Of a stretch of DNA of 64,000 nucleotides, positions 3,299-28,896 are shown piece after piece. The position numbers and the translations under genes are program-made. Below the pieces are notes generated by a model. It was not told the DNA's origin. It saw nothing but the letters and a program-made list of their open reading frames with translations, and made no database searches. Position 1 is the first letter of the stretch. Each line of letters begins with the position of its first letter. The stretch is from a virus (taxonomy: Duplodnaviria > Caudoviricetes). The stretch lies in IMG/VR virus record IMGVR_UViG_3300033405_000003; one strand, 5' to 3'.

Positions 3299-3574
3299 TC
3301 ACGTTTGCTCCGTGTGATGCCCGCAGTGCGGACAGGTACCGGGCGTGGGGAAGCGACCGGCGAGGACGTCGTCCACGCCAACCGACGCGAAACGCGCGAT
3401 GCGGACGGCCAGGCTCGCGCTGGCCACCTTGCGCGAGCATGCGATCTGTCCGAGCGTCGTCGCCTTGAAGTGCAAAGCCTTTGCAACTGGCTCCCACCCG
3501 CCGCAACGCGCCCGCAGGTAGCGGAGCGCGGTGCGGACGTTGGTCTGCTCGGCAGGCGTGAGGTCGGCGCTCAT
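3299..3574 (-). CDS. Small Cro/HTH-like protein with C-terminal CPHC
   Basis: ATGA overlap with transposase stop; VAKALHFKATTLGQI helix-turn-helix-like. Confidence 0.65.
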   Translation of the reverse strand: MSADLTPAEQTNVRTALRYLRARCGGWEPVAKALHFKATTLGQIACSRKVASASLAVRIARFASVGVDDVLAGRFPTPGTCPHCGHHTEQT

Positions 3575-4815
3575 TGTGACGCTCCGTTCGCGACAGGCGG
3601 GAGCCAGAACTTCGGCTCGATGTTGAACTCGTAGATCGAATGGACGAGCGTGGAGAGGTTGAAGCAGAGGCACTTCAGGAGCACCTCGTTCACCTGCGCT
3701 ACGGGCAGCTTGCTCCGAAGCGCGGCACCGAACTTCTTCTTCATCGCGCCGAACGTGCTCTCGACGTTGGAGCGCTTGTGGTAGTGCGCGAGGAAGTCTT
3801 CCTTGTTGAGGGAGTAGTAGTGAAACATCCGCTCCCACGCCGGGCTGCCCATGCTCTTCGAGTTGAGCTTGAACGGCACGAACGGCGTCGCGCCGACGCC
3901 CTCGACGATGGCGAGGTTCGCGTGGCTCAGGTAACCCTTGTCCGCGCTGATCTCCTTCATGTCGTAGCCGTGCGCAGCGGTGCGCTCGACGAGCGTCTTG
4001 AACATCGGTGAGTCGTGCACGGTGCTGTCGGTGACCGCGACGGACGTGATGATGTTGGTGACGGTGCCGATCATGGCATGGCACTTCACCCACTTCTGGA
4101 CGCGGCGATCTTCGCCGTGCTTGTAGTCGAACCATCGCACGTACGTCGGCGTTGCGAAGCCAGTCGCGTCGGCCGCGAAGTCGTGCTCGATGGCCTTGAG
4201 CGGCGTCGCGGCAAGCTCGACGAGGCTCGTCAGCACGGGCGTCAGCTCGGGCTTCTGGCAGTAGTTGAAGATCGAGTTGTAGTGCGGCTGCCGCGTCATG
4301 AGGCCTGCGGCCTTGCACGCCTTGATGTCCGTGGTCGCGCGTCGCCCGCTGACGGTCGTGTAGACCTTGGTCGCCATGCCGTACACCGCGTCCGCGAGCG
4401 GGATGGGCTTGGGACCGCGTCCGGGGTGTGGAGGCGTCACGATCGTGTCGCAGAGCGAGCGGAGGAGGACCTGGGAGACCTCCTTCTCGGTGCACTGCGC
4501 CGCGTTGTACGCGCGCCAGTCTTGGGAGTACGAGATGCGTTCTACGGTTTCGGTCACGACAGTCGTCCCGTCGGGCATCTGCACTTCGTGGCGGAAGTAC
4601 CGGAGTGCCCAGAGGTGCTTGCAGAGATCGCGATGCGTCTCGTAGTCCGGGCACGTACACTCGCTCTTGACCGCGTCGACGACGTAGCCGCTTCCCGAGT
4701 TTGTGGCCGACGGCACGAGAAACATGTCGCCAGAGATTTGCCGGAACAGCTTGGCGCGCCCCTTCGCGAGAGCGAGCCCCCGTTCCTGCCGAGGACTGAT
4801 GACTGCCGTATCCAT
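3571..4815 (-). CDS. SWIM-zinc-finger DDE transposase (IS4/IS5-like)
   Basis: SWIM CTCPD...CKH; DATGF, ADKGY, YHKRSNVESTF. Confidence 0.9.
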   Translation of the reverse strand: MDTAVISPRQERGLALAKGRAKLFRQISGDMFLVPSATNSGSGYVVDAVKSECTCPDYETHRDLCKHLWALRYFRHEVQMPDGTTVVTETVERISYSQDWRAYNAAQCTEKEVSQVLLRSLCDTIVTPPHPGRGPKPIPLADAVYGMATKVYTTVSGRRATTDIKACKAAGLMTRQPHYNSIFNYCQKPELTPVLTSLVELAATPLKAIEHDFAADATGFATPTYVRWFDYKHGEDRRVQKWVKCHAMIGTVTNIITSVAVTDSTVHDSPMFKTLVERTAAHGYDMKEISADKGYLSHANLAIVEGVGATPFVPFKLNSKSMGSPAWERMFHYYSLNKEDFLAHYHKRSNVESTFGAMKKKFGAALRSKLPVAQVNEVLLKCLCFNLSTLVHSIYEFNIEPKFWLPPVANGASQ

Positions 4816-5739: not shown

Positions 5740-6513
5740 ATGCAGGGCGTCGCCATGGCCGATCTAGGTGCGCCCGCCGACCTTTACCGCGAGATCAAGA
5801 CCGGGGGCCGGTGGGCGCGTCGCTCGGTCGCCGTCGGCGACCGCGTTGGCCAATCGATCGTCGTTCGAGACATCGGTCTGGTCGGCAAGTGCCGGCGCTT
5901 CGAGATCACGTGCCAGTTCTGCGGGGTCATTCAGATCCGCAGCGCGGGGCAGATCAACGCGGCGCTCCGCTACGAGCGTTCGATCACGTGCCCCCGGTGC
6001 CTGAGCGAAGGGCGTCTGGCCAAATGCCTCGACATCCAGGACAAGCGCCTCGAGCGCGTGCTCGGCGGTGGCCCGGTGTACACGCTCTACGAAGAGGACG
6101 CCATCTGCGACGGCGTCTTGAGCGACCTCGAAGCGGAGTTCGGACCGTTGACCCACGACGACATGCCGATCTCGGAGATGACCATCGCTGCTGGATGGCC
6201 GTACAGCGCGAACGTCCCCGCGAAGGACGCCGTCGCCGAGTACATCGGGGAGACCGAAGCCGAACGCGCCTGGCGCCACGAGATGAACAGCATCCTCTTC
6301 GCCAAGCGCGACCTCGAGTACCGCGCGGCCCTCCGCCGCGCGTACGAGCGCGACCAGGATAAGTTCACGGAGCGCGCTCACGAAGCAGCGAAGGCGCTCG
6401 AGTCGTTCGTTCTGGCGGGCGGGCAACTGAGCGTCACCCAGCCTCGCGATCCGTGCCCATGCAGCAGCGGGCTCGCGTTCGCCGACTGCCACGGTTCCGA
6501 CGACCAGTCTTAG
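5740..6513 (+). CDS. Hypothetical protein with CxxC pairs and C-terminal SEC-C motif
   Basis: RDPCPCSSGLAFADCHG; TTGATT-17-TAGGAT promoter upstream. Confidence 0.75.
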   Translation: MQGVAMADLGAPADLYREIKTGGRWARRSVAVGDRVGQSIVVRDIGLVGKCRRFEITCQFCGVIQIRSAGQINAALRYERSITCPRCLSEGRLAKCLDIQDKRLERVLGGGPVYTLYEEDAICDGVLSDLEAEFGPLTHDDMPISEMTIAAGWPYSANVPAKDAVAEYIGETEAERAWRHEMNSILFAKRDLEYRAALRRAYERDQDKFTERAHEAAKALESFVLAGGQLSVTQPRDPCPCSSGLAFADCHGSDDQS

Positions 6514-21306: not shown

Positions 21307-23088
21307 ATGGCGATCAGAATCAAGCGTGGGCCCGTCGTCCTCATCGCGATCCTCGGTGCAGTGGGACTCTTCTTCGGCATCCGGGCCGTCGTCGGCAAGA
21401 TGCCCGGACATGAGGCCGAGGTCCCGAAGACGGCGGAGCTGCCGACGCTGAAAGAGAACACCGTGCAGAGCGCGTCGGTCCCGAAGACGCCGCTCCCGGG
21501 CACCGTCGCTACTGGCAAGGGTACGGACGTGCGCGCGATGGTGTGGGCGTGGAACGCGCAGATGGGCCTGCTCTACGCGAACGGCGGCGCCGACACGACG
21601 CAGGGCTCGCTCATGGCTGCACGCAACGTGAACCTCCACTTCACCCGCGAGGACGACACCAGCAAGATGGCCGCTCAGCTCATGGCCCTCGCGAAGAACG
21701 TCGCCAAGAACATCGAGGGGACGGACGGCGTGCACTTCATCACGCTCATGGGCGACGGCACTCCGAGCTGGTTCGCTGGGCTCAACGCGGACCTGAAGAA
21801 GATCTGCGCCGACTGCACCGCCGAGACCGTCGGCGTCCTCGGCTACTCGCGCGGCGAGGACAAGTTCATGGGCCCCGCCGAGTGGAAGGACAGCCCGAAG
21901 AAGGCCCAGGGCGCGCTCATCGCCGGCGTGATCCGCGACGGCGACTGGAACGTCGCCATGAAATGGGCCGGCGACAACGGCATCCTCAATAACCCCGACG
22001 AGACGACGTACGACCCCGACGCGCTCAACTGGGTGAACGTCGACAACTTTCTCGAGGCCCCGAAGAAGTACATCCTCGGCGTCTGCGAGGACCGTCCCGT
22101 CGTGCACCAGGGGCGCCGCACGGGCCAGACCAAGAACGTGTGCGTGAACGCCGTCGTCACGTGGACGCCCGGCGACGTCAACGTCGCGCAGCAGAAGGGC
22201 GGCCTCCAGTCGATCGTCTCGACCAAGGAGTACCGGAGCCAGATGCCGTGCGCGCTCATCGGCATCAAGAAGTGGGATCGGCTCCACCGCGACGTCGTCG
22301 AGGGCATCCTCCAGGCGTCCTTCGACGCGGCCGACCAGGTCCGCGCGTACCCCGACGCGCTCGCGCGCGCCGGCGAGATCAGCGCCGCCGTCTACAAGGA
22401 ATCCGACGGCCCGTATTGGGTTCGCTACTTCAAGGGCGAGACCGAGAAAGACAAGCAGGGGCTCATGGTGCCGCTCGGCGGCTCGTCGGTCTCGGACCTC
22501 GCCGACAACGCGCAGGTCTTCGGCCTCGCGCCCGGGTCCGTGAACCTCTTCGCCGCCACGTACACGACCTTCGGCGACATCGCCGTCCAGCAGTACCCGA
22601 AGATCGTGGGGAGCTACCCGCCCGTCTCGGACGTGCTCGACACGTCCTACGTCGAGGACCTCCTGAAGAAGGCTCCCGTCGCGACCACGTCCGCGGACGT
22701 CGCCACGTTCAAGAGCGGCGCTGCCATCACGAGCGTCGTCTCGAAGAAGAGCTGGAGCATCACGTTCCAGACCGGCAGCGCCGCGTTCTCCCCCGACGCG
22801 CAGAAGACCCTCGACGCGCTCGAGAAGGACCTCGTCATCACCGACCTCGTCATCGAGATCGACGGCCACACCGACAACACGGGCGACGCGTCCGGCAACA
22901 AGGCGCTCTCGCAGAGCCGCGCGAACGCGGTCAAGGACTGGCTCATGAAGCAGTCGACGACGAACTTCCCCGCCGACCGCTTCACCGTCAAGGCGTTCGG
23001 GCAGGACAAGCCCGTCGCGACGAACGACACGGAAGCCGGGCGCAGCAAGAACCGCCGCGTCGACGTCATCATGGGCACGGCGGAGTGA
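21307..23088 (+). CDS. Substrate-binding protein fused to OmpA-like domain
   Basis: N-terminal anchor; [26 protein letters not shown]. Confidence 0.9.
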
Positions 23089-23848: not shown

Positions 23849-24688
23849 ATGCGTTCATCAAACAAGTCCATCAATCTGAAGCTGCCCTCCATCGAGGCAC
23901 ATAGTGCCTGCTACGCGCTCATCGGTACCGGTCCGATGCTGGTCCACGCATTCGGCCAGAAATCGTTCACCGAGATGCTCGAAAAGATGGTCGGCTGTCG
24001 CCAGGACGGTACGCCTCTCGACTCTGAACGCGAACCCAAGGATCTCGAGCGCGAGTTCGTGGACGCCCACGCATTCAACGAGCGGGGCGAGGAGGTGATC
24101 CCTTGTCGATGGATCAAGGCCGGTATGCTCACGGCCGTCGCCGCGAGTCGAAAGCAACTCAACGCTTCGGCGATGCGGCGCGCGGTTCGCGTGACGGGCT
24201 TCACCTCTCCCATCCTCGACCCAAAGGGTCGCAAGGCCGCCACAGCCGAACTTCAGCACGACGTCGTCCGCGTCGGCTCTTGGTCGAACCGCACTCCCGA
24301 CGTCCGCGCACGGCCGCGCTACGATGAGTGGATGATCGAAATCGTCGTCAAGGTGATCGTCGATCAGGTTCCCATGGAACACGTGGCCTGGGCGCTCTCC
24401 GCCATGGGCGAGCTGGTCGGTCTCGGCGACTGGCGAACGGAAAAGAACGGTGAGTACGGCTTTTTCAAGATCAAGGGCCTTCACGTAAACGAAACCGATC
24501 GCATCATGAAGGCTTGCTCTTCACCCGAGCGTAGGCTCGTCATCCCGCCCGCACTCATGACGGCAATGAAGACCAAGGGCATTACCCAAGCTCAGGTGCA
24601 CGAAGAGATGGAGCGCATCAAGGGTGGTGGCAAGAACAAAAGCAAGAGCCGCTCGAACGGTGCTCAGTCCCACGGCGAAGTGTCATGA
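23849..24688 (+). CDS. Stand-alone RAMP/Cas7-like RNA-binding protein
   Basis: GAAAGGA SD; LIGTGPMLVH, IPCRWIKAGM, RARPRYDEW, Gly-rich loop GELVGLGDWRTEKNGEYGFF. Confidence 0.8.
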   Translation: MRSSNKSINLKLPSIEAHSACYALIGTGPMLVHAFGQKSFTEMLEKMVGCRQDGTPLDSEREPKDLEREFVDAHAFNERGEEVIPCRWIKAGMLTAVAASRKQLNASAMRRAVRVTGFTSPILDPKGRKAATAELQHDVVRVGSWSNRTPDVRARPRYDEWMIEIVVKVIVDQVPMEHVAWALSAMGELVGLGDWRTEKNGEYGFFKIKGLHVNETDRIMKACSSPERRLVIPPALMTAMKTKGITQAQVHEEMERIKGGGKNKSKSRSNGAQSHGEVS

Positions 24689-25275
24689 CGTCGACAAAGA
24701 AAGGGGCTCGCGTCAACAAAGTGCGGGCCCCTAGGATCACTGCGAGGGGCAAATACACGGTCGAAGAGATCCGTGAGGCCTGGATCATCTTCACCGAGAT
24801 GACTGGCGGCGGAGATTGGCGAAACTCGCTCACACCCGAGTTTGTGCTCGAACAGGTGCTCGCCGACAAGTCACACCCGTTGAGGCGTTACCTCGAACGT
24901 GACGTCGAGAAGGCTGCTCATCAACATTGGATCAGCCAAATCGGCCATCTGATGAATGAGGTCCGCATCTCAGTCATCGTCACTCAAGAACCTGGCAAGG
25001 TCATCCGCGTGCAGACGCGTTCGCTCGTGCACATGCCGAGGACCGCGACTCGCGACGCGGGGCGCCGCCCTCTCCGGCAGATTCGCAAAACGAAAGAGGA
25101 TCGTGACGCTCTGGCAAGGATTCGCGCGCAGTATCTACGATCCTGGGTCGGAGCGACCGAGGCACAGCTCGCCGCCATCGATGCCAACCAGTCAGCGCTT
25201 GTGGCGTTGCTTTCAGATGTGAAGCGAGCGCTCAGGCGCTTCGACGACTCTCTCAACATCGATGCTGCTGAATAA
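24685..25275 (+). CDS. Partner protein of the RAMP locus
   Basis: ATGA coupling to RAMP gene; LTPEFVLE...HPLRRYLERDVEKAAHQHW. Confidence 0.75.
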   Translation: MTSTKKGARVNKVRAPRITARGKYTVEEIREAWIIFTEMTGGGDWRNSLTPEFVLEQVLADKSHPLRRYLERDVEKAAHQHWISQIGHLMNEVRISVIVTQEPGKVIRVQTRSLVHMPRTATRDAGRRPLRQIRKTKEDRDALARIRAQYLRSWVGATEAQLAAIDANQSALVALLSDVKRALRRFDDSLNIDAAE

Positions 25276-25282
25276 CGTAAGA

Positions 25283-26030
25283 ATGGACTGTAATAGGGGA
25301 AAGGAAGGGACAGGACTGGACGGTATAGGAGTGGAACGGCCGGTAACGGAGCCGACAGGAGAGTAATGGATCGACAGGAGAGTAATGGATCGGCCGGTAA
25401 ATGGAACTGATTGGAAGCGAGCGGAACGGACGTGGCGGGATCGGTGTGGAGCGGATCGGCCGGTAATGGATTGGACGGGACATGAACGTATTGGAGTCGA
25501 AGTGACAGGACTGGCCGGAAAAACGGAATGTATCGTAGGGGAACCGAACGGAACAGAATCGAACGGACCGGCCGGAAATGGAATCGATGGGAATGGAGTG
25601 ACGAGGAAAGGATCGTAAGGGATAGGACAGGACCGGAACGAGAATTGGTCGGAAAATGGATAGGAGCGAGCGGAGGCGTGAGGGAACGAAGCGGCCGGTC
25701 AAAAGGGAGCGGATGGAGAGGAATGGAGAGGAAAGTACAGGAACGGTTGATAATGGAACGAAGACGACCGGACTGGCCGGAAAAGCGGAATGTATCTGGA
25801 GAGGATAGGATAGGAAAGAAGGGAACAGGATCGGCCGGATAGCGGAATCGAGAGGACAGGCCAGTACAGGGAACGGACCCGATAGGAGGCGAGTCGACTG
25901 GAGTGGAAACGGAAGGGCCGGAAGAGGAATGAAATGAATGGACTGGAGCGGCCGGAGAACAGGAACGGAATCGATCGGATAGGAAGCGATCGTATCGGAC
26001 GGGAGTGGAAAGGCCGGACAGTGGAAAGAA
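25283..26030 (+). repeat. Non-coding NN-GGA pentamer array with GGCCGG punctuation (putative guide-RNA array)
   Basis: 5-nt periodicity; exact GGCCGG at 25338, 25392, 25458, 25513, 25570, 25693, 25775, 25833, 25916, 25950, 26012 and GGTCGG at 25647. Confidence 0.9.
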
Positions 26031-28029: not shown

Positions 28030-28896
28030 GTGCAAATCGAGGCTTTTCATCCGATCGGGCAGAACGGTGCTCGCGTCTCCTACGAGTTGAAGGACGTTCT
28101 CGTCAGCATCAAGGACATCGGACTCGCGTACGGTGGCAGGCCCATCCTCGCGAACCTCTCGGCGGAGGTTCGCGACATCGTTCGACCGGGTTGCGTGACG
28201 GGGCAGGTCGTCGGCATCCTCGGACCGTCGGGTGTTGGCAAGACGCAGCTCTCGCGCATCATGACGGGCTTGCAGGAGCCGACGTCTGGCGAGATCCGCG
28301 TCGGAGCCGGTGACAAGAGCGAGAGAGTGCACGCGGGGCTCGTCGGCTACGTCGCGCAAAAATATCCGCTCCTTCGACACCGCACGGTGCTCGGCAATCT
28401 CGTCACAGCATCGAGACGCGCGGGCGCAAGTGCGGCGGAGGCGAAGGACAAGTCGATGGACTTCCTCAAGCGCTTCGACCTCTCGGACAAATGGGATAGC
28501 TACCCGGCGGAGCTTTCTGGCGGCCAGCAGCAGCGCGTCGCCATCGCGCAGCAGCTCCTCTGCTCGGAGCACTTCCTCATCCTCGACGAGCCGACGACGG
28601 GGCTCGACCCGCTCATGAAGGACAAGGTCTGCGCCCTCGTCCGGCAGGTTGCTTCGATCTCGGAGGAGAACACGATCTTCGTCGTGACGCACGACATCGC
28701 GGCCATCCTCACGATCGCCGATCATCTGTGGCTCCTCGGGCGCGACCGCGACGCCCAAGGCGCTTCGCTCGGCGCTCGCATCCAGCACCACTACGACCTC
28801 ATCGAGCGCGGGCTCGCATGGCGCGACGACCCGCAGGCGCTGCCGGCGTTCGCGGAGACGATGCGCGAGGTCCGCGCGAGGTTTCAGGAGCTATGA
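28030..28896 (+). CDS. ABC transporter ATP-binding protein
   Basis: GPSGVGKT, LSGGQQQRVAIA, LILDEP, VTHD. Confidence 0.95.
   Translation: MQIEAFHPIGQNGARVSYELKDVLVSIKDIGLAYGGRPILANLSAEVRDIVRPGCVTGQVVGILGPSGVGKTQLSRIMTGLQEPTSGEIRVGAGDKSERVHAGLVGYVAQKYPLLRHRTVLGNLVTASRRAGASAAEAKDKSMDFLKRFDLSDKWDSYPAELSGGQQQRVAIAQQLLCSEHFLILDEPTTGLDPLMKDKVCALVRQVASISEENTIFVVTHDIAAILTIADHLWLLGRDRDAQGASLGARIQHHYDLIERGLAWRDDPQALPAFAETMREVRARFQEL

What the first reader, a model, noticed from the sequence alone, without database searches (positions are those of the whole stretch)
25338..26017. GGCCGG punctuation as probable guide boundary or processing signal
Eleven exact GGCCGG and one GGTCGG occur at 34-83 nt spacing. 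Each sits in register (GGC replaces the last GGA) and is usually followed by a short A-rich linker that resets the phase. It plays the role of a CRISPR repeat but is only 6 nt, and no Cas6 is present, so the partner protein or a host RNase may process it.
Basis: partly seen in the sequence, partly recalled or inferred. Interest (0 to 1): 0.7.

Follow-up and report, generated by a model that had tools for sequence, protein, structure and literature searches.

The report
Six-base commas in phage VIPR guide array
The repeated GGCCGG marks are real and conserved: they separate the individual guide RNAs in the array of a phage VIPR system, a CRISPR-related DNA-silencing system first described in 2026, here in a variant with GGA repeats and an unusually short 6-base separator.

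Summary
Observation confirmed. There are 11 GGCCGG and 1 GGTCGG on the + strand of a 750-nt G/A-rich tract. Composition-preserving shuffles give about 0.4-0.8.

The tract is the guide array of a VIPR system (bioRxiv 10.64898/2026.04.26.720920). The upstream 279-aa protein is a Vipr RAMP: its family profile hits SUSP1 Vipr at E 1.8e-17, and its model has a Csm3/Cas7 fold. A conserved partner gene follows it.

Units are GGA-NN pentamers. Position 3 is A in 111 of 124 units and NN carries no information. Each GGCCGG sits in register, is followed by an A-rich ~5-nt linker, and shifts the lattice by about +1.

Four further independent relatives (Vipr 53-89% identical; five arrays in all) keep GGCCGG while the guide content differs completely. 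Sister lineages (35-40% identical) use GGY units punctuated by GGCAGG, one base different.

One guide of a sibling phage, bounded by two GGCCGG, matches a window ORF at 9 of 10 dinucleotides by the published 1-nt-skip rule, in codon register. No set of 100 shuffles reached this.

The guide-boundary reading is supported. Whether GGCCGG is itself the cleavage signal, and which RNase acts, could not be tested because no RNA data were available.

The scan has found GGA-type VIPR arrays before on other DNA. The GGCCGG separator is the new detail. Verdict: a new variant of a known kind.

The parts
23849..24688 (+). vipr gene (279 aa), a stand-alone RAMP/Cas7-like protein
   Evidence: A family profile of 96 sequences hits the PDB 36pp SUSP1 Vipr chain at E 1.8e-17 over residues 5-194 of 202. 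AF2 model pLDDT is 91.7. Foldseek finds Csm3/Cmr4/Cas7 at E ~1e-6. The family has 1310 representatives at E<=0.001.
24685..25275 (+). vap-like partner gene (196 aa); its start overlaps the vipr stop
   Evidence: It is conserved next to vipr in L013, L004, L002 and L009 at 68, 36, 38 and 24% identity. It has no Pfam family. Its Atlas neighbours are unnamed viral clusters.
25285..26017 (+). vrRNA guide array: about 12 modules of GGA-NN pentamers, each ending in a delimiter
   Evidence: There are 85 GGA, with spacings mostly 5, 10 or 15. Unit position 3 is A in 111 of 124 units, and positions 4 and 5 carry 0.03-0.04 bits. There is no Rfam family.
25338..25343 (+). GGCCGG delimiter 1
25392..25397 (+). 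GGCCGG delimiter 2 (ATCGGCCGGT, self-complementary over 10 nt with G-U pairs)
25458..25463 (+). GGCCGG delimiter 3
25513..25518 (+). GGCCGG delimiter 4
25570..25575 (+). GGCCGG delimiter 5 (CCGGCCGG, an 8-nt palindrome)
25647..25652 (+). GGTCGG, a one-base variant delimiter followed by AAAAT
25693..25698 (+). GGCCGG delimiter 6
25745..25750 (+). GGTTGA followed by TAAT-GGA: a possible decayed delimiter inside the 82-nt module
   Evidence: Read from the sequence; inference.
25775..25780 (+). GGCCGG delimiter 7
25833..25838 (+). GGCCGG delimiter 8
25859..25864 (+). GGCCAG: a possible decayed delimiter inside the 83-nt module
   Evidence: Read from the sequence; inference.
25916..25921 (+). GGCCGG delimiter 9
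25950..25955 (+). GGCCGG delimiter 10
26012..26017 (+). GGCCGG delimiter 11, the last element of the array; no full guide follows it
3348..3376 (-). Site matched by guide L013_6065 of a sibling phage (9 of 10 dinucleotides, 1-nt skip, skip at the codon wobble position)

Best explanation
GGCCGG is the invariant end-mark of each guide unit in a compact, tail-less guide array of a phage VIPR system.

Proposed mechanism:
1. The array is transcribed on the + strand, probably as a 3' extension of the vipr-vap operon. (Inferred.)
2. Vipr protomers bind one GGA-NN pentamer each and display the NN bases. (Inferred from homology to SUSP1 Vipr.)
3. At the delimiter the lattice is deliberately broken. The last unit carries GGC, a pyrimidine at position 3 where nearly every other unit has A. 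Only one base instead of two precedes the next GG. An A-rich ~5-nt stretch without GG follows, and the next guide starts in a lattice shifted by about +1. A filament therefore cannot run on in register into the next guide. This sets filament length at about 9-12 protomers and leaves an unprotected A-rich linker.
4. The motif so plays the part of the ~40-nt pseudoknot tail of SUSP1-type vrRNAs and of the GGCAGG one-base overlap of staggered arrays.
5. The precursor is then cut or trimmed in the linker by an RNase not yet identified: a host enzyme, Vipr itself, or the partner protein.

Shown here: the motif, its register, its conservation, its co-variation with the Vipr clade, the module sizes, and one target footprint that fills a module.

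Inferred: transcription, filament capping, and the site and agent of cleavage.
For: Enrichment and register.

VIPR identity of the locus:
- Vipr profile against SUSP1 Vipr, E 1.8e-17.
- Model pLDDT 91.7 with a Csm3/Cas7 fold.
- Conserved partner gene.
- Published description of Vipr + vap + pentamer vrRNAs with a 3' tail and 9-16 repeats per guide.

Lattice: position 3 is A in 111 of 124 window units, NN carries about 0 bits, and modules mostly hold 9-12 units.

Conservation: L013/L001 has 17 delimiters, L004 has 6, L002 has 16 and L014 has about 8. All carry GGA-N-Y-GGCCGG-AAAAN-GGA, although Vipr identity falls to 53% and the flanking genes differ. No guide is shared between the window and L013, whose Viprs are 89% identical.

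Module period peaks at 51-52 nt; 33 of 49 periods are 5n+1 or 5n+2.

Sister lineages with GGY lattices (L009, L022, L023; 35-40% identity) are punctuated by GGCAGG at periods of 49, 54 and 59 nt. The delimiter therefore co-varies with the protein clade.

Arrays start without a delimiter and end with one in the window and in L013, as expected for a 3' element.

Target footprint: guide L013_6065, 10 units lying exactly between two delimiters, matches window 3348-3376(-) at 9 of 10 dinucleotides, in frame with an ORF and with the skip at the wobble position. None of 100 shuffled guide sets reached 0.9. Skip rules of 0, 2 and 3 nt gave at most 0.7.
Against: - No RNA data: transcription, strand and RNA ends are unobserved.
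- No target was found for any of the window's own guides.
- The target evidence is a single hit from a sibling array, and the matched 89-aa ORF has no family.
- The window's own modules are less regular than those of relatives. Their periods mod 5 are scattered and there are seven 4- or 6-nt units, so some guides may be decayed.
- L002 and L004 begin with a delimiter close to the array start, so assigning the motif to the 3' side of a guide is not certain.
- SUSP1 Vipr excludes purines at position 3, and a GGY>GGA change abolishes its silencing. GGA reading in this clade is therefore inferred from conservation only.
Confidence: 0.7

Rival explanations
1. The delimiters act through base pairing. 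GGCC, CCGG and CGGCCG are palindromes, so two delimiters (neighbours in the precursor, or the 3' ends of two mature RNAs) form 4-10-bp helices. These helices would cap the filament, as the SUSP1 pseudoknot does, or make a double-stranded RNase site.
For: In the MFE and centroid folds of the 785-nt tract, delimiters pair with each other; z = -3.9 against 20 shuffles. Self-duplex length is 6-10 bp for 40 of 57 delimiters. Position -1 is C or T in 40 of 57 and A in only 4, against an even background, which extends the palindrome. SUSP1 filaments dimerise at their 3' pseudoknots.
Against: The homologous delimiter of the sister clade, GGCAGG, is not self-complementary. The motif is invariant, so no covariation can support pairing. 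Seventeen of 57 sites give only 4 bp. Vipr coating of the flanking units would compete with pairing. The -1 bias also fits a longer sequence motif, YGGCCGG.
Confidence: 0.15
2. The motif works mainly at the DNA level, as a short homology or recombination point at which guide cassettes are duplicated, lost or exchanged. It would have no role in the RNA.
For: Duplicated segments exist within the arrays: the 19-nt tandem copy at 25353-25392, repeated modules in L004 and L013, and very short modules such as 19 and 34 nt.
Against: Duplication end points do not coincide with delimiters. In L013 one duplicated segment runs across a delimiter and another lies inside modules. The fixed register to the pentamer lattice and the A-rich linker point to a constraint on the RNA or RNP.
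Confidence: 0.05
3. The tract is not a guide array but a GGA-rich sponge or scaffold RNA for a CsrA- or TRAP-like protein, and GGCCGG merely separates binding modules.
For: It has 85 GGA motifs, many Shine-Dalgarno-like, with 5-nt phasing as in TRAP sites. This was my first reading.
Against: The array always travels with a Vipr RAMP gene and its partner while the flanking genes change. The NN positions are information-free, as in published vrRNAs. One sibling guide follows the 1-nt-skip code. There is no Rfam CsrB/Rsm-type hit.
Confidence: 0.03

Closest known systems
VIPR systems with staggered vrRNA arrays (bioRxiv 10.64898/2026.04.26.720920, text and fig. S18 legend). Seen here in L009, L022 and L023 as GGY lattices punctuated by GGCAGG.
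   Same: Both have a Vipr plus a homologous partner gene. Both have tail-less, back-to-back guides of about 10 pentamers. In both, a short invariant boundary begins with an in-register GGC unit followed by a single base and then GG (GGC-N-GG), and this breaks the lattice. The two motifs differ by one base.
   Different: Here the constant triplet is GGA, not GGY. The boundary is GGCCGG plus an A-rich ~5-nt linker. The lattice shifts by about +1 (periods 5n+1 or 5n+2) instead of -1 by a 1-nt overlap (periods 5n-1). The motif is palindromic. The published text I could read does not mention this layout, and the figures are not held.
Type II VIPR of Escherichia phage SUSP1 and the Pseudomonas fulva prophage (same preprint; structures in 10.64898/2026.04.26.720927; PDB 36pp)
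   Same: Both have a homologous Vipr protein, one protomer per pentamer, 9-16 units per guide, a conserved element at the 3' end of each guide, and the NNx target code with the skip at the wobble position.
   Different: SUSP1 vrRNAs are about 100 nt and carry a ~40-nt conserved pseudoknot tail that caps the filament and is needed for complex formation. Here only 6 nt plus a linker are conserved. The SUSP1 pocket excludes purines at position 3, and a GGY>GGA change abolishes its silencing, whereas this clade uses A.
CRISPR arrays with Cas6-type processing, and ruler-plus-host-nuclease maturation of type III crRNAs
   Same: An invariant element alternates with variable guide content. A Cas7-like backbone filament probably sets guide length. 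(The comparison with type III trimming rests on general knowledge.)
   Different: The repeat is 6 nt, not 21-48 nt. There is no cas1, cas2, cas6 or other cas gene. The guide is itself a constrained lattice with only 2 of 5 bases free. The target is DNA read with gaps.
Hammerhead-interspersed VIPR arrays (same preprint, fig. S19)
   Same: Several guides on one precursor need a separating device.
   Different: No ribozyme or any other Rfam family is found in the tract, even at E<=10. The spacers are far too short for one.

Membership tests
VIPR system | Vipr protein: a minimal RAMP (RRM core, G-loop, thumb) homologous to SUSP1 Vipr | tested here: met
   phmmer gives E 0.0045. The clade profile gives 4.6e-6. 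The family profile gives 1.8e-17 over nearly the full length, including the G-loop GxGDWR. AF2 pLDDT is 91.7. The Csm3/Cas7 fold is found at E ~1e-6.
VIPR system | An accessory vap gene next to vipr | tested here: inconclusive
   A conserved 184-217-aa partner follows vipr in five loci. I could not compare it with the published vap1-6. L014 has two vipr genes with no partner between gene and array.
VIPR system | vrRNA made of tandem pentamers with a conserved GGY and hypervariable NN | tested here: not met
   The pentamer lattice with information-free NN is present, but the constant triplet is GGA (A in 111 of 124 units), not GGY. The preprint allows 'a related consensus' and NNNGG repeats, so this is a variant rather than an exclusion.
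VIPR system | 9-16 repeat units per guide | tested here: met
   Units per module are mostly 9-12 in the window, and 8-16 in L001/L013.
VIPR system | A conserved structured 3' tail (pseudoknot) after each repeat tract | tested here: not met
   Only GGCCGG plus an A-rich 4-7-nt linker separates the tracts. This feature defines type II, not all VIPR types.
VIPR system | DNA targets matching NN by the 1-nt-skip rule, with the skip at the wobble position | tested here: inconclusive
   One sibling guide matches the window at 9 of 10 dinucleotides, in frame. None of 100 shuffle sets reached this, and other skip rules gave at most 0.7. No target was found for the window's own guides.
VIPR system | Encoded by a phage or other mobile element | tested here: met
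   Neighbouring genes hit PHROG families. The source contig is 218 kb, and relatives lie on contigs of 63-171 kb. No relative was found in 185,579 species genomes.
Staggered VIPR array | Adjacent vrRNAs overlap by 1 nt, so the end of one is the start of the next | tested here: not met
   In the window clade the next GG lattice starts 11 nt after the delimiter begins, with a linker in between. The 1-nt overlap is seen in L009 and L022.
CRISPR array | Direct repeats of 21-48 nt, cas1/cas2 adaptation genes and a Cas6-type processing enzyme | tested here: not met
   The repeat is 6 nt. TRF finds only short local duplications. The neighbours have no Cas families in Pfam.
CsrB/RsmZ-type sponge RNA | GGA motifs in hairpin loops, and a match to known families | tested here: not met
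   There is no Rfam hit at gathering score or at E<=10. The GGA motifs sit on a strict 5-nt lattice.

The most novel reading that the evidence does not exclude
Six bases are a complete functional substitute for the ~40-nt pseudoknot tail. The single GGC (pyrimidine) unit in GGCCGG would nucleate or cap the Vipr filament, and the RAMP protein itself would cut the precursor at the lattice break. A purine-reading Vipr could then mature a dozen 51-nt guides from one transcript without Cas6, a ribozyme or a host factor.
Probability: 0.2. Interest if true: 0.7.

Novelty: new variant of a known kind. Interest (0 to 1): 0.45.

Why it matters
VIPR is a months-old discovery, and how its multi-guide arrays are divided into single guides is known only for tailed and ribozyme-separated arrays. 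The processing enzyme is not named in the preprints I read.

This clade shows that the boundary can shrink to 6 nt plus a short linker, about 51 nt per guide. It also shows that the boundary motif co-varies with the Vipr lineage (GGCCGG with GGA lattices, GGCAGG with GGY lattices). That pattern points to protein recognition of a lattice break rather than to an RNA fold.

If confirmed, this gives a minimal rule for building dense multiplexed guide arrays. It also offers a natural Vipr that reads a purine at position 3, which SUSP1 Vipr cannot. It does not change the picture of what VIPR is.

Tried and rejected
- Whole genome: none is held for this window. The records behind my loci are not searchable by handle.
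- Close relatives in IMG/VR: none by protein. An array pattern scan gave one coding false positive.
- GTDB species genomes: no Vipr relative of this clade. The array pattern gave 7 hits. The two inspected (L019, L020) lie in ordinary coding or intergenic sequence, and none of the seven has array-like GGA or GGCCGG density.
- Phage GenBank records: no DNA match.
- Exact 1-nt-skip scans of two clean window guides in IMG/VR: none.
- A scan for the sibling guide's target pattern in IMG/VR gave one unrelated intergenic hit.
- First AF2 model from 7 sequences was poor (pLDDT 56), so I replaced it with a 96-sequence alignment.
- Promoter and terminator scan around the array: no promoter-like site, and the terminator-like sites do not exceed shuffles.
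- My own first idea of a CsrA/TRAP-type sponge was dropped once the Vipr link appeared.
- Short contigs for P0009, P0010, P0012 and P0015 gave no array DNA.

Full report
**1. The observation**

The + strand between 25276 and 26045 is a gene-free tract of 770 nt (G 310, A 249, C 116, T 95).
- It holds 85 GGA, and their spacings are mostly 5, 10 or 15 nt.
- Exact GGCCGG lies at eleven + strand positions from 25338 to 26012, and GGTCGG lies at 25647.
- Across the whole window the hexamer is no commoner than its composition predicts (119 sites against 113.6 in shuffles).
- Inside the tract, however, shuffles give 0.4-0.8 sites with a maximum of 5, against 11 observed.

**2. What the tract is**

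- No Rfam family matches it, even at E<=10.
- The neighbouring genes hit phage protein families, and the source contig is 218 kb.
- The gene at 23849-24688 (279 aa) gave a weak phmmer hit to a PDB chain named 'SUSP1 Vipr protein'.
- That name led to three 2026 preprints on VIPR, the Viral Interference Programmable Repeat systems.

As published, VIPR has three parts: a minimal RAMP protein (Vipr), an accessory vap gene, and vrRNAs. Each vrRNA has 9-16 pentamers with a conserved GGY and hypervariable NN, followed by a conserved 3' tail, which is a pseudoknot in SUSP1. The NN bases read double-stranded DNA while skipping every third base, usually the codon wobble position. Arrays can be tailed, 'staggered' with 1-nt overlaps, separated by hammerhead ribozymes, or single.

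Membership of the window protein is solid:
- a profile of 96 family members hits SUSP1 Vipr at E 1.8e-17 over almost its whole length, including the G-loop;
- a model built on that alignment has pLDDT 91.7;
- the model matches Csm3/Cmr4/Cas7 chains at E ~1e-6.

The 196-aa gene at 24685-25275 overlaps the vipr stop codon. It is conserved beside vipr in relatives but has no named family.

**3. Grammar of the array**

I segmented the modules into 5-nt units.
- Position 3 is A in 111 of 124 window units, which makes it the most conserved position.
- Positions 1 and 2 are mostly G.
- Positions 4 and 5 carry 0.03-0.04 bits.
- Modules mostly hold 9-12 units.

The tract therefore has the published vrRNA design, but with GGA where the literature has GGY. 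In SUSP1 the position-3 pocket excludes purines, and a GGY>GGA change abolishes silencing.

**4. The delimiter in relatives**

Homologues of the Vipr protein were traced to their contigs. L013/L001 (89% identical), L014 (62%), L002 (58%) and L004 (54%) all carry a G/A-rich array after the gene pair, although the flanking genes differ. All of these arrays are punctuated by GGCCGG.

Over 57 delimiters from five arrays the consensus is GGA-N-Y-GGCCGG-AAAAN-GGA:
- GGA lies at -5 in 52 of 57;
- position -1 is C in 23, T in 17, G in 13 and A in 4, against an even background;
- A predominates at +6 to +9;
- the next GG lies at +11/+12 in 40-48 of 57.

The GGC is thus in register with the upstream lattice, and the downstream lattice is shifted by +1.

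Delimiter-to-delimiter periods peak at 51-52 nt, and 33 of 49 are 5n+1 or 5n+2. The window's own periods are more scattered, and seven of its units are 4 or 6 nt long, so part of its array may be slipping or decaying.

Guide content is unrelated between the window and L013 despite their 89% identical Viprs.

The window and L013 arrays begin without a delimiter and end with one, followed by non-guide sequence. This fits a 3' element. L002 and L004, however, start with a delimiter close to the array start.

**5. Sister lineages**

Vipr relatives at 35-40% identity (L009, L022, L023) have canonical GGY lattices.
- Their modules end in GGCAG, and the next lattice starts on that last G. This is the 1-nt overlap of the published staggered arrays.
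- GGCAGG recurs at periods of 49, 54 and 59 nt.

The two boundary motifs differ by one base. Both are a GGC unit followed by one base instead of two before the next GG. The delimiter therefore co-varies with the protein clade, much as CRISPR repeats co-vary with their Cas proteins. GGCAGG is not self-complementary.

**6. A target footprint**

I applied the published NNx rule to all guide runs of 8 or more units from the related arrays against the 64-kb window. This gave one outstanding hit.
- Guide L013_6065 has ten units lying exactly between two GGCCGG. It matches 3348-3376 on the minus strand at 9 of 10 dinucleotides.
- The match is in frame with the small ORF 3299-3568(-), with every skipped base at a wobble position.
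- None of 100 shuffled guide sets reached 0.9. The best values were 0.889 once and 0.8 in five sets.
- Skip rules of 0, 2 and 3 nt gave at most 0.7.
- The first matching unit is the A-rich linker unit directly after the upstream delimiter. The last is the unit directly before the downstream delimiter.
- The ORF has no Pfam or PHROG family. Its resemblance to a small helix-turn-helix regulator is my reading by eye only.
- The window's own guides do not match the window (best 0.64). Two of them have no exact target in IMG/VR.

This is a single hit. It supports, but does not prove, both the code and the module boundaries.

**7. Pairing**

- GGCC, CCGG and CGGCCG are palindromes.
- In the predicted fold, delimiters pair with one another (z = -3.9).
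- Forty of 57 sites can form 6-10 bp with a second copy, and the C/T preference at -1 extends the palindrome.
- Against a pairing role: the motif is invariant, so there is no covariation; the sister motif cannot pair with itself; and 17 of 57 sites give only 4 bp.

I keep this as the main rival, not the best reading.

**8. Mechanism and limits**

The best reading is that GGCCGG is a lattice-breaking end-mark. It ends one Vipr filament and exposes an A-rich linker for cleavage or trimming. In this it is functionally equivalent to the pseudoknot tail or the staggered comma.

Transcription, strand, RNA ends and the nuclease are all unobserved.

L014 has two vipr genes, each with a GGCCGG-type array and no partner gene between gene and array. 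This is weak evidence that the partner is not needed in cis.

**9. Novelty**

VIPR itself is published. GGA-type arrays have been noted several times by this scan on other DNA.

The 6-nt GGCCGG plus linker boundary, its +1 shift, and its one-base relation to GGCAGG are not in the text or legends I could read. The figures are not held, so a logo in fig. S17 or S18 might already show them.

I rate the finding as a new variant of a known kind, of moderate interest.

Noticed in passing
window:3299-3568 (-), site 3348-3376: A small 89-aa ORF downstream of a 414-aa gene (3571-4815, -) is the apparent target of a guide from a sibling phage (L013). This suggests the two phages compete. The ORF has no Pfam or PHROG family. 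Its helix-turn-helix look, and the SWIM/transposase look of the 414-aa gene, are by eye only.
   Followed up: partly
L014:594-3214: There are two vipr-like genes (207 aa and 276 aa) on one 3.2-kb contig. Each is followed by its own G/A-rich array with GGCCGG-type delimiters. The second array follows a terminator-like hairpin with a T-run, and no partner gene lies between gene and array. Many delimiters there are degenerate (GTCCGG, GGCTGG).
   Followed up: partly
L009:2270-3100; L022:1-520; L023:4401-4577: Vipr relatives at 35-40% identity carry GGY-NN lattices punctuated by GGCAGG with a 1-nt overlap (periods 49, 54, 59). This is the published 'staggered' layout, and the motif is one base away from GGCCGG.
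   Followed up: yes
P0001 residues 187-196 (window 24407-24436) against P0009-P0016: The G-loop reads GLGD[WY]R in all five GGA-lattice proteins. It reads G[LIF]C[ED][WFM]R in the seven nearest relatives outside the clade (P0016 has H for C), including the three with known GGY arrays. This Gly/Cys switch is a candidate determinant of purine versus pyrimidine reading at unit position 3. It is untested.
   Followed up: no
window:25353-25392: A perfect 19-nt tandem duplication lies inside one module (TRF score 80). Because 19 = 4x5-1, it puts a -1 slip into that guide's lattice.
   Followed up: partly
window:26220-26999 and 28030-28896: An ABC-transporter permease-like gene and an ABC ATPase gene sit directly downstream of the VIPR cassette in what looks like a phage genome. 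An OmpA-domain protein lies upstream at 21307-23088.
   Followed up: no
window:12872-13193: Three tRNA genes are clustered within 320 nt (Rfam). A first-reader note describes odd anticodon arms there.
   Followed up: no
L013:5981-6064 and 5768-5819; L004:1851-1921 and 1987-2037: Long stretches of guide sequence are duplicated between non-adjacent modules of the same array, so guides seem to arise partly by internal duplication.
   Followed up: no
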